Made by a program: the position numbers. Below, piece by piece: positions 45,901 to 48,900 of a stretch of DNA of 64,000 nt. Source of the DNA: Escherichia coli. GTDB taxonomy: Bacteria > Pseudomonadota > Gammaproteobacteria > Enterobacterales > Enterobacteriaceae. Within the stretch, counting starts at the first letter, position 1. Each line of letters starts with the position of its first letter. The DNA lies in NCBI RefSeq assembly GCF_048403405.1, contig NZ_CP183129.1. One strand, written 5' to 3'.

Positions 45901-48900
45901 ATAAACTTACGCATCGGGGATGTTTACATAGGATTCAGAATTACTTCTTCTTATAAATATTTGCCGTGCCGTGAATCTTATTGTCAGTTTGACCAGAGGT
46001 CAGCACCAACACATCAGCCCCTTTTTCATCGGCTTTTTTGATCAAATCTTCTTTCGCATCTGCGGTCGACATTTCATTACTGGTTGAAATATCACCTATT
46101 TTTTCATATTGCGATTCAACCTTTTCAAATTCCGCTTTGGTCATTAATTCTGCGGCATAGACATTGGTAACGGCAAACGCTAATGCACCGACTAACATTT
46201 TAGAGATTATTTTCATATTACGGCTCCAGAGTTGTTATCACACTATCACCCACCCACATTATTGGGTTGATTAATAATTAGTTCAGTCAGGGCATAAACG
46301 CCAGTAACCGGAAATAAGACACTTTGTGATCTCTCTCGCACCCGATTATTTTTGGTAGAAATATGATGAAGTTACTTCACTTTTTTATGGATGAAATCAC
46401 TATGGATCCTTTGCACGCCGTTTACCTGACCGTAGGACTGTTCGTGATTACTTTTTTTAATCCGGGAGCCAATCTCTTTGTGGTAGTACAAACCAGCCTG
46501 GCTTCCGGTCGACGCGCAGGGGTGCTGACCGGGCTGGGCGTGGCGCTGGGCGATGCATTTTATTCCGGGTTGGGTTTGTTTGGTCTTGCAACGCTAATTA
46601 CGCAGTGTGAGGAGATTTTTTCGCTTATCAGAATCGTCGGCGGCGCTTATCTCTTATGGTTTGCGTGGTGCAGCATGCGCCGCCAGTCAACACCGCAAAT
46701 GAGCACACTACAACAACCGATTAACGCCCCCTGGTATGTCTTTTTTCGCCGCGGATTAATTACCGATCTCTCTAACCCGCAAACCGTTTTATTTTTTATC
46801 AGTATTTTCTCAGTAACATTAAATGCCGAAACACCAACATGGGCACGTTTAATGGCCTGGGCGGGGATTGTGCTCGCATCAATTATCTGGCGAGTCTTTC
46901 TTAGTCAGGCGTTTTCTTTGCCCGCAGTGCGTCGTGCTTATGGGCGTATGCAACGCGTTGCCAGTCGGGTTATTGGTGCAATTATTGGTGTATTCGCGCT
47001 ACGCCTGATTTACGAAGGGGTGACGCAGCGGTGAGCAGATAATTTACTCTCTACGTAATCAACCTGATTTGCCGAATCCCGACCATCGGCGATGATAGCC
47101 CCCGTAATGCGTGGTCCTTATTTCCGATAAGTTTACTTGAGTCTTTAGCTTCCCATTTCAGCCCACTCTCCCCTGTGTGGGCTTTTTTCATTGCTCTGCC
47201 CCGTCCTGAATAGCCAAACAATGGCAATGTTTCACTTTGCAGGGATGATAATAAGGGGATCTGATTCAGAAGAGTTATGAAAAGTTGGACCGCCATCGAG
47301 GCCTCGAACCCCGTACCATACAACAATCCTGGTTGTCGTCTGCTCTTCCTGATGAGCTAATGGCGGTTTTTGATATGAGCCTTACAGCATATTTTCTGTC
47401 AGGCTTGAGTGCGATGCGTAAGATACAGAAAAGACCCCACACAAACATGATGGAATTATGATTTTTTTCATATGAATGTCAACCCACACATTCACAAAAC
47501 ATCTGCATGAGATCATTTTTTATACACCGTATAGCTGCGAAACCACTGCTGATGCTTTTTTAAGCGAAGCGTCGCCGATCACAACAAAATATCGGCGAAA
47601 AAGGCGGTGGAATGCCATTTGGCATACGGATATACAGATGAAATGATTACCTGCTTTGCGATTCACTCTCTGGTGGAATAACAACTCGCAGGTGGAACCC
47701 TTTCTGAACTAAAGAGTGTAGCGGATTTTAACGTGCTTATTTACAGGATAATATCTGTCACCTAATTCCTGGACTCTATTAGATATCCATTGATTTAATC
47801 GCGCATCATCTCTGTATGTTTTTACGTCCAGAACAGAGAGCAATAACATCACCAGTGATTCAGGAAAAACAGGGTAGATATTTTTTAAGTGTAATAATAA
47901 TCCATGCGCAAGCGCCTGCTTAATGGGCGCGTCGGTCTCCGGGATAGACGACATTTCGCGAAGCCATTTTTCCACATGCATACACTCTTTCCCTTTAGGG
48001 AAAAGTCTCAGCAAAGGCATATGGTGTTCAAGAAGAATACATTTGCAATCTGTTCGCACTGAATCGATAAACTGCACTAATTTCTTAAGCCCGGTAAAGC
48101 GTCCAGCCTGCACATTTGCTTTAATATCAAGAAACGCATCGTCCTGGTCATATACCCAAACTGTCCCTTTTTGATTTTCAAGTATGCGAAAAACAAACTT
48201 AACCGGGTGATCAGGGTAATCCATCCAGTCATAAAACCCAGGGAAATCATTAAACTGCACATTTATGGTGAGTGCGTTATCGTCTGACCACTCACAGTCT
48301 CGTACGGCAGCCATGAGATGAATGAGTTTGTCGTCATCGACTAAATCATCACGACAATCATAAGGATAATCATAATATTGTTTAATCAAAACCTTGAATA
48401 TATCGACACAGGAAACCAGGGAGCTTTTGATATCCTCTGGTAACTGATTGTTTTTAACCGTATTAAGTATGCTTTGTTGCGTATATGGCATCAAATTATT
48501 GTGCGGAGCTTTTAATGATATCATCGCGATCTCTCTTAAATAAAAATAAACGTCGCAGATAATAAAGCTCTGATTAAACCAGGCACTATCAGAAATCGCT
48601 CATAACTAACGTGTGAAGTATTGTGTACTGGAGGGAGTTAATTTAACAATTTGAATTTACGTTATAGGTTTTACTGCTACTTTGATATTATTTCGCTCTC
48701 CTTAACTAAAAAGTTAAGTGGAGAGCGAAGTTAATATGTTAAACCACAGGGTATTTATTAATTTTTTCAGTCTGTTAGTGTGCGATTATCGATAACAAAA
48801 CGATATTTCACATCTCCTCGCAGCATTCGCTCATAGGCTTCATTAATTTGATCGGCCCGAATCATCTCTATATCAGCCACGATGCCATGTTCGGCGCAAA

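What the first reader, a model, noticed from the sequence alone, without database searches (positions are those of the whole stretch)
48692..48729. Strong two-tier hairpin between yahL and yahK
ttcgctctcc pairs with ggagagcgaa (10 bp) and an inner ttaact pairs with agttaa around an aaaa loop. It lies 38 nt downstream of the yahK stop on the minus strand but is not followed by a U-run on that strand, so it is not a textbook intrinsic terminator. It may be an RNA processing or stability element or a protein-binding palindrome.
Basis: seen in the sequence. Interest (0 to 1): 0.2.

Follow-up and report, generated by a model that had tools for sequence, protein, structure and literature searches.

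The report
Hairpin marking the yahK mRNA end
This is a real, strong RNA hairpin just after the E. coli yahK gene at which published 3'-end maps place the end of the yahK message, an ordinary example of a known kind of end-protecting stem-loop without a U-tail.

Summary
Both flanking genes are on the minus strand, so it lies in the yahK 3' UTR, 37 nt after the stop codon.

Two published E. coli K-12 3'-end maps place RNA ends 3-5 nt after the stem on the yahK strand. One classes the site as the primary yahK terminus. There is no U-tract.

One bicyclomycin dataset flags a Rho termination region 36 nt further on, followed by a C-rich, G-poor patch. That signal rests on low counts.

The hairpin is single-copy. 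It is found in about 99.9% of complete E. coli genomes that carry yahK, including B2 strains that lack yahL. Four structural alleles (plus a single-substitution variant) all keep a strong stem, and one carries a compensatory U-A to C-G change.

The best reading is a 3'-end-defining, exonuclease-blocking stem-loop of a probably Rho-terminated yahK transcript, the class described by Dar and Sorek in 2018. A weak non-canonical intrinsic terminator is the main rival. The finding is ordinary and of low novelty.

The parts
48692..48729 (-). Core hairpin in the yahK 3' UTR. On the RNA (minus) strand it reads 5' UUCGCUCUCC-AC-UUAACU-UUUU-AGUUAA-GGAGAGCGAA 3'. The outer stem pairs 48720-48729 with 48692-48701, the bulge is 48718-48719, the inner stem pairs 48712-48717 with 48702-48707, and the loop is 48708-48711.
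   Evidence: dG -20.4 kcal/mol, z -5.9.
48685..48737 (-). Full three-tier palindrome, including a weak outer A-U tier (AUAUUA at 48737-48732 pairing with UAAUAU at 48690-48685).
   Evidence: a 61-nt context folds at -22.9 kcal/mol, z -8.6.
48687..48689 (-). Published steady-state RNA 3' ends. MG1655 344013 and 344011 (Term-seq) and 344012 (TRS peak, cluster 344007-344015) map to window 48687, 48689 and 48688. These are 3-5 nt after the last base of the strong stem and inside the 3' arm of the weak A-U tier.
   Evidence: PMC7815308, supplementary files 1 and 3; PMC10687069, Supplementary Data 2. The coordinate mapping is window = 392700 - MG1655 position. It was derived from the yahL and yahM start offsets in those tables and the gap-free alignment to K-12.
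48651..48651 (-). Coordinate of the published 'Rho termination region' (MG1655 344049, + strand), with Rho score 3.6 and p 1.8e-5.
   Evidence: PMC7815308, supplementary file 2. Method.
48611..48637 (-). C-rich, G-poor patch CUCCCUCCAGUACACAAUACUUCACAC (12 C, 1 G), a candidate rut site 55-81 nt downstream of the hairpin in the untranslated spacer.
   Evidence: in the first 100 nt after the hairpin C=20 and G=11, C/G 1.82. The patch was counted directly from the printed sequence.
48767..49816 (-). yahK coding sequence (NADPH-dependent aldehyde reductase), the gene whose transcript ends at the hairpin.
47709..48524 (-). yahL coding sequence, the downstream same-strand neighbour. It is absent from B2 strains, which nevertheless keep the hairpin.

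Best explanation
The hairpin is the 3'-end-defining stem-loop of the yahK mRNA.

RNA polymerase transcribes past it into the 242-nt untranslated, A+T-rich spacer before yahL. There transcription is most likely stopped by Rho, which loads on the C-rich, G-poor stretch downstream. 3'-to-5' exonucleases (PNPase, RNase II) then trim the ragged ends back. They melt the weak A-U tier and stall at the G+C-containing stem, leaving a precise end 3-5 nt after it. The stem then protects the yahK message from further 3' decay.

Shown: the structure, the position of the steady-state 3' ends, the lack of a U-tract, and the linkage to yahK.

Inferred: that Rho is the terminating factor, that exonucleases do the trimming, and that the hairpin stabilises the mRNA.
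For: (1) Two independent published data sets put the RNA 3' end at MG1655 344011-344013 on the yahK strand, 3-5 nt past the stem. One classes it as the primary terminus of yahK.

(2) No U-tract follows. The tail is AAUAAUAU and no terminator-like site is called. My TransTermHP-style tail score is -2.18, against -4.68 for the canonical terminator after the Enterobacter yahK orthologue.

(3) A Rho termination region (Rho score 3.6, p 1.8e-5) is reported 36-38 nt downstream of the 3' ends.

(4) C exceeds G downstream (20 versus 11 in 100 nt), with a 27-nt patch of 12 C and 1 G.

(5) All of this matches the published description of Rho-dependent transcript ends: precise ends immediately after stable stem-loops, reduced U content, mild C-over-G enrichment downstream, and protection from PNPase and RNase II.

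(6) The hairpin travels with yahK (5090 genomes with the hairpin, 5096 with yahK). It is kept in B2 strains that lack yahL.

(7) Four structural alleles and a single-substitution variant all fold strongly, from -19.9 to -30.2 kcal/mol. One allele carries a compensatory U-A to C-G change.
Against: The Rho evidence is weak. It rests on 800-nt windows with low counts (untreated 32 upstream and 24 downstream; bicyclomycin 83 and 225). Under bicyclomycin the downstream signal exceeds the upstream one. The score may therefore reflect drug-induced transcription arising inside A+T-rich yahL rather than read-through from yahK.

No 3' end was called at this site in the LB OD 0.4 Term-seq set, so no site-specific Rho score or intrinsic-terminator score exists for it.

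The hairpin is no better conserved in sequence than the surrounding spacer, with 3 changes in 38 nt against 14 in 245 nt in allele D. One change in that allele breaks a pair.

Exonuclease dependence and any effect on mRNA half-life were not tested.
Confidence: 0.6

Rival explanations
1. It is a non-canonical intrinsic (Rho-independent) terminator. The long stable hairpin alone, perhaps helped by NusA or NusG, makes RNA polymerase release the yahK transcript a few nucleotides after the stem despite the poor U-tract.
For: A strong hairpin lies 37 nt after the stop codon, with precise 3' ends just after it. The tail has some U (AAUAAUAU). The orthologous position in Enterobacter sp. BIGb0383 holds a canonical intrinsic terminator, so a terminator is expected here. 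The Rho evidence is ambiguous.
Against: Only 3 U occur in the 8 nt after the stem, the tail score is -2.18, and no terminator-like call is made. The 3' ends lie 3-5 nt after the stem rather than the 7-9 nt typical of intrinsic release (established knowledge of the mechanism). A Rho termination region and a C-rich, G-poor tract lie just downstream.
Confidence: 0.25
2. It is a regulatory attenuator in a yahK-yahL co-transcript or yahL leader. The hairpin would conditionally limit read-through into the A+T-rich downstream gene yahL.
For: Adams et al. list the 3' end as 'upstream ORF', -163/-165 from yahL. It was called in LB OD 2.0 and M63 but not in LB OD 0.4.
Against: B2 strains have lost yahL precisely but keep the spacer and hairpin. 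The hairpin co-occurs with yahK, not yahL. No alternative (anti-terminator) pairing or leader ORF is evident: only 25- and 27-codon ORFs with non-ATG starts on the opposite strand. No Rfam family matches. The apparent condition dependence is more simply explained by low yahK expression at OD 0.4, where counts were 32 and 24 reads per 800 nt.
Confidence: 0.07
3. It is a DNA-level feature with no RNA role. It could be a binding site for a dimeric protein, a leftover end of a mobile element, or a quasi-palindrome kept by template-switch mutation alone.
For: It is a near-perfect palindrome, and the inner 16-bp TTAACT-N4-AGTTAA is invariant in all alleles seen. One allele became a perfect palindrome through three clustered changes, a mutational signature that needs no selection. 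IS1 has inserted into or beside it in some strains.
Against: RNA 3' ends map to it, so it has a molecular effect at the RNA level. It is single-copy per genome and absent from phages, and its plasmid hits are F-primes or mislabelled chromosomes. The outer-arm spacing differs among alleles (a 2-nt loss in different places), which a dimeric operator would tolerate poorly. No binding-site data were found.
Confidence: 0.05

Closest known systems
[quoted passage not shown]
   Same: A stable stem-loop lies in the 3' UTR, with a precise steady-state 3' end immediately after it. There is no U-tract after the stem and no A-tract before it. C exceeds G downstream. The gene is poorly expressed, and a bicyclomycin-sensitive region lies nearby.
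   Different: Rho dependence of this particular end is only suggested, not shown. The stem is longer (16 bp plus a 6-bp A-U tier) and more A+T-rich (39% G+C) than typical terminator-like hairpins. I could not check whether yahK is in their tables, because the supplement is not held.
Canonical intrinsic (Rho-independent) terminators
   Same: A stable hairpin lies a few tens of nt after a stop codon, with a precise 3' end close to the stem. The Enterobacter orthologue has a canonical terminator in the equivalent position.
   Different: It lacks the U-tract, the 3' end is closer to the stem, and it fails the consensus scan.
REP/BIME and other dispersed intergenic palindromes that stabilise upstream mRNA
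   Same: It is an intergenic palindrome at a gene's 3' end that can block 3' exonucleases.
   Different: It is single-copy and has no sequence relatives elsewhere in the window or in E. coli genomes. It is A+T-rich rather than G+C-rich and matches no Rfam family.

Membership tests
Protective 3' stem-loop of a Rho-dependent transcript (Dar and Sorek 2018 class) | Precise steady-state RNA 3' end immediately downstream of an energetically stable stem-loop | tested here: met
   3' ends at window 48687-48689, 3-5 nt after a -20 kcal/mol stem, in two published data sets.
Protective 3' stem-loop of a Rho-dependent transcript (Dar and Sorek 2018 class) | No U-rich tract after the stem and no A-tract before it | tested here: met
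   The tail is AAUAAUAUC, with tail score -2.18 and no terminator-like call. Upstream is AACAUAUUAAC.
Protective 3' stem-loop of a Rho-dependent transcript (Dar and Sorek 2018 class) | Bicyclomycin-dependent read-through past the 3' end | tested here: inconclusive
   A published Rho termination region lies 36 nt downstream (score 3.6, p 1.8e-5). Counts are low, and downstream exceeds upstream under the drug, so independent initiation in yahL is not excluded.
Protective 3' stem-loop of a Rho-dependent transcript (Dar and Sorek 2018 class) | C-over-G enrichment (rut-like) downstream of the structure | tested here: met
   C=20 and G=11 in the first 100 nt, with a patch at 48611-48637 of 12 C and 1 G.
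Protective 3' stem-loop of a Rho-dependent transcript (Dar and Sorek 2018 class) | 3' end produced and held by PNPase or RNase II trimming, with the stem stabilising the mRNA | not testable with these tools
   This needs exonuclease mutants and half-life measurements.
Canonical intrinsic terminator | G+C-rich stem with a short loop | tested here: met
   A 10-bp outer stem with 6 G-C pairs, a 6-bp inner stem and a 4-nt loop. Overall G+C is only 39%.
Canonical intrinsic terminator | U-tract directly after the stem | tested here: not met
   3 U in 8 nt, and the scan finds 0 sites on either strand.
Canonical intrinsic terminator | Termination by RNA polymerase alone, independent of Rho | not testable with these tools
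   This needs in vitro transcription. The published bicyclomycin data are ambiguous.
Dispersed intergenic repeats (REP/BIME, ERIC, MITE-like) | Many related copies per genome | tested here: not met
   One copy in the window at up to 3 mismatches. The median is 1 place per E. coli genome, and second places are explained by the perfect-palindrome allele matching itself on the other strand (408 extra places against 404 such genomes). There is no Rfam hit.
Operator for a dimeric DNA-binding protein | Fixed half-site spacing and documented protein occupancy | tested here: inconclusive
   Outer-arm spacing varies among alleles while the inner 16-bp palindrome is invariant. No occupancy data were available. 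The only nearby genomic-SELEX peaks (minor sigma factors) are centred about 300 bp away inside yahK.

The most novel reading that the evidence does not exclude
The hairpin could be a genuinely U-tract-less termination or processing signal whose efficiency is tuned in nature by quasi-palindrome template-switch mutations. The alleles range from -19.9 to -30.2 kcal/mol, and 404 genomes carry a perfected palindrome. Lineages would then differ in yahK mRNA stability or in read-through into the A+T-rich yahL-yahM region.
Probability: 0.08. Interest if true: 0.35.

Novelty: new member of a known kind. Interest (0 to 1): 0.12.

Why it matters
It matters little beyond annotation. It gives yahK a defined 3' UTR of about 80 nt and a defined transcript end, and it adds one well-behaved example to the class of U-less protective stem-loops. 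yahK is widely used in metabolic engineering, so knowing its native 3' end and stabilising element has minor practical use. The natural allelic series (weakened, wild-type, compensated and perfected stems) would make a convenient test set for how stem strength sets mRNA 3' end stability.

Tried and rejected
- **Rfam.** A permissive scan of 47500-50000 gave only a chance snoRNA hit elsewhere.
- **Repeat family or mobile-element end.** The element is single-copy in the window and per genome. There is no phage match. The 13 plasmid matches are K-12 F-primes or multi-megabase records labelled as plasmids.
- **Bidirectional terminator.** The + strand tail scores only -2.6, and no opposite-strand 3' end is listed near the site in the Adams tables.
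- **Small ORF or leader peptide.** Only 25- and 27-codon ORFs with non-ATG starts exist, both on the + strand.
- **Promoter between the yahK stop and the hairpin.** None reaches the scan threshold.
- **RNase III site.** The mapped ends lie outside the stem, not within it (inference).
- **Cross-species comparison.** The nearest hit was Enterobacter sp. at 89%, whose downstream region is unrelated. A divergent Escherichia allele was reached instead through a cluster look-up.
- **Sources not held.** The supplements of Dar and Sorek 2018 and of two other 3'-end papers are not held. Two guessed PMC ids, meant for Peters 2012 and Ju 2019, are not held.
- **Formal covariation count.** I skipped it because MAFFT misplaces the 2-nt gaps of alleles B and C. 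Pairs were read by hand and by folding each allele.

Full report
**Observation**

The + strand at 48692-48729 reads TTCGCTCTCC-TTAACT-AAAA-AGTTAA-GT-GGAGAGCGAA. The repeat finder reports the 10-nt arms as 100% complementary and finds the inner arms around the 4-nt loop.

As RNA the 38-mer folds at -20.4 kcal/mol on the minus strand and -20.0 on the plus strand. Shuffled sequences average about -5.6 kcal/mol (z -5.9 and -6.7), and 0 of 200 fold as well.

Folding every 38-nt window of the 64-kb window on both strands gives only 44 loci at or below -19 kcal/mol. This locus has the lowest G+C of them (39%), so its stability comes from near-perfect complementarity rather than composition.

In a 61-nt context a third, weak A-U tier appears (48732-48737 pairing with 48685-48690), and the fold reaches -22.9 kcal/mol, z -8.6.

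**Context**

The locus is E. coli. The 301-nt region is 100% identical to strain CFSAN061763 and 99.3% identical to K-12.

yahK (48767-49816) and yahL (47709-48524) are both on the minus strand. On the transcribed strand the hairpin therefore lies 37 nt after the yahK stop codon and 167 nt before the yahL start codon. The spacer between them is 242 nt and 33% G+C.

No sigma-70-like promoter and no terminator-like site is called at the hairpin on either strand. Rfam has no match. Only two tiny non-ATG ORFs, on the opposite strand, overlap it.

**Published RNA 3' ends**

The supplementary tables of Adams et al. 2021 (PMC7815308) list Term-seq 3' ends at MG1655 344013 and 344011 on the + strand, classed as 'orphan' and as -163/-165 from yahL. 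The printed flanking sequence is ...TTCGCTCTCCACTTAACTTTTTAGTTAAGGAGAGCGAAATAAT|ATC....

I mapped coordinates as window = 392700 minus the MG1655 position. The mapping uses the tables' own offsets (yahL start 344176, yahM start 345404) and the gap-free alignment of the window to K-12. It places these ends at 48687 and 48689, which is 5 and 3 nt after the last base of the strong stem and inside the 3' arm of the weak A-U tier.

From their position in the files, the two entries appear to come from the LB OD 2.0 and M63 sheets. No end was called at LB OD 0.4.

An independent analysis, TRS (PMC10687069), lists a terminus cluster at 344007-344015 with its peak at 344012 on the + strand, annotated 'Primary, yahK'.

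No opposite-strand end near the site is listed in the Adams tables.

**How the end is made**

The tail after the stem is AAUAAUAUC, with 3 U in 8 nt. My TransTermHP-style tail score is -2.18. The formula and the usual -2.5 cut-off are from my own knowledge.

For comparison, the hairpin-plus-UUUAUUUAUU terminator after yahK in Enterobacter sp. BIGb0383 scores -4.68. That species is the closest non-Escherichia orthologue found (89% amino-acid identity). The E. coli element is not a canonical intrinsic terminator.

Adams et al. also list a 'Rho termination region' at 344049 on the + strand (window 48651). Its Rho score is 3.6 and p is 1.8e-5.

The RNA downstream of the hairpin has C=20 and G=11 in its first 100 nt, and a 27-nt patch at 48611-48637 has 12 C and 1 G.

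This is the anatomy Dar and Sorek 2018 (PMC6061677) described for Rho-dependent transcripts. They reported precise steady-state ends immediately after stable stem-loops, without U-tracts, with mild C-over-G enrichment downstream, and protected from PNPase and RNase II.

I therefore favour Rho termination in the untranslated spacer followed by exonucleolytic trimming back to the stem.

The caveat is real. The Rho score compares 800-nt windows with low counts (untreated 32 upstream and 24 downstream; bicyclomycin 83 and 225). Under the drug the downstream signal exceeds the upstream one. Part of the effect may therefore be drug-induced transcription that starts inside A+T-rich yahL rather than read-through from yahK. 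A weak, non-canonical intrinsic terminator remains a serious rival.

**Which gene it belongs to**

The 66-nt hairpin region is found in 5090 of 5426 complete E. coli genomes. The last 300 nt of yahK are found in 5096. The two are essentially always together.

B2 strains such as ATCC 25922 lack yahL through a clean roughly 835-bp indel (window about 47696-48529). They keep the spacer and the hairpin. The element goes with yahK, not yahL.

It is single-copy and absent from phages. On plasmids it occurs only in F-primes or mislabelled chromosomes.

**Natural variation**

| Allele | Example strain or locus | Records | Stem | dG, 59-61-nt context (kcal/mol) |
|---|---|---|---|---|
| A | window, K-12 | about 3950-4000 | 10 bp, AC bulge, 6 bp | -22.9 |
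| B | ATCC 25922 (B2) | about 664 | 2 nt lost from the 5' arm: 7 bp, 2x2 internal loop, 7 bp | -21.2 |
| C | THO-003 (B2 subset) | 404 | perfect palindrome AUUUCGCUCUCCUUAACU-UUUU-AGUUAAGGAGAGCGAAAU | -30.2 |
| D | L088-L091 and 7 complete genomes | 7 complete genomes, plus other assemblies | U-A to C-G compensatory change, one C.A mismatch, one extra closing pair | -22.1 |

A single-strain variant, MLI023K2, shortens the stem by two pairs (-19.9 kcal/mol).

Structure is kept while sequence and arm length drift, which fits an RNA-level role better than a fixed protein operator.

The evidence for selection is modest, however. In allele D the hairpin changes about as fast as the rest of the spacer (3 of 38 nt against 14 of 245 nt).

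Allele C differs from B by three substitutions within 10 nt, against 53 differences in 3064 nt overall. All three convert the 5' arm into the exact complement of the 3' arm. That is the signature of a quasi-palindrome template-switch mutation and needs no selection (my inference).

**Comparison with known kinds, and verdict**

In function and anatomy this matches the protective 3' stem-loops of Rho-dependent transcripts. Four of that class's five defining features could be tested. Three are met and Rho dependence is inconclusive.

It fails the U-tract requirement of canonical intrinsic terminators and the multi-copy requirement of REP-like repeats.

The site's 3' end is already catalogued in two public data sets, although no paper I could read discusses the hairpin itself.

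I rate it a new member of a known kind, with interest about 0.12.

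Noticed in passing
window 48692-48737, compared with L002:2610-2726, L006:1474-1590 and L088:2547-2795: An allelic series of the hairpin exists across E. coli. In 404 complete genomes (a B2 subset, e.g. THO-003) it is a perfect palindrome. It differs from the other B2 allele by three substitutions within 10 nt that all copy the complement of the opposite arm. This looks like a natural quasi-palindrome template-switch event.
   Followed up: partly
window about 47696-48529; L002:2400-2560: yahL is a clean presence/absence polymorphism. B2 strains join ...CAACTTGCAGGTGG directly to CTCTCTTAAAT..., removing yahL with 13 nt after its stop codon and about 5 nt before its start codon. 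No obvious direct repeats flank the junctions.
   Followed up: partly
L005:1730-2510 (strain PEC414) and L003:1745-2500 (strain EC291): IS1 sits in this spacer in some pig isolates, with adjacent deletions. In PEC414 the right IS1 end is inside the hairpin (junction at window 48718/48719). Its left end is 1 nt from the B2 yahL-indel boundary (window 47694/47695). In EC291 IS1 abuts the yahK stop region and removes the hairpin.
   Followed up: partly
window 49903-51827 (minus strand): Two overlapping ORFs of 328 and 323 aa lie just upstream of yahK. The same position in L088 carries two ABC-transporter permease genes (PF02653). K-12 and ATCC 25922 have only a 75-nt pseudogene remnant there, before yahJ. 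The window strain therefore carries genes deleted in K-12.
   Followed up: no
L007-L086 (genome-contig scan with YahK): Apart from Enterobacter sp. BIGb0383 (89%), the closest YahK relatives returned are from Betaproteobacteria, Pseudomonas and Paracoccus (78-84% identity). This is an odd phyletic pattern that hints at horizontal transfer.
   Followed up: no
window 47310 and 47115 (MG1655 345390 and 345585): Adams et al. list a Term-seq 3' end 14 nt upstream of the yahM start codon and a strong Rho termination region (score 6.2) inside yahM. They also built a yahM 5' UTR plus ORF lacZ fusion. The whole A+T-rich yahL-yahM stretch appears Rho-policed.
   Followed up: no
window 13950-13987, 2039-2076, 27282-27319, 32165-32202, 33103-33140, 38458-38495, 31480-31517, 35654-35691: These are other very stable 38-nt hairpins in the window (-19 to -24.6 kcal/mol). 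Several look like ordinary intrinsic terminators (stem followed by T-run), and two resemble REP sequences (GCCGGATGCGGCG...). 13950-13987 is a 13-bp G-rich near-perfect palindrome, TAGGGGGGTATG...CATACCCCCCTA.
   Followed up: no
MG1655 343660 (window about 49040, inside yahK): Genomic SELEX by Shimada et al. 2017 lists a peak here for RpoH, RpoF and RpoE holoenzymes (intensities 5.6, 27.1 and 17.8). It lies about 300 bp upstream of the hairpin on the transcript. This may simply reflect affinity for A+T-rich DNA.
   Followed up: no
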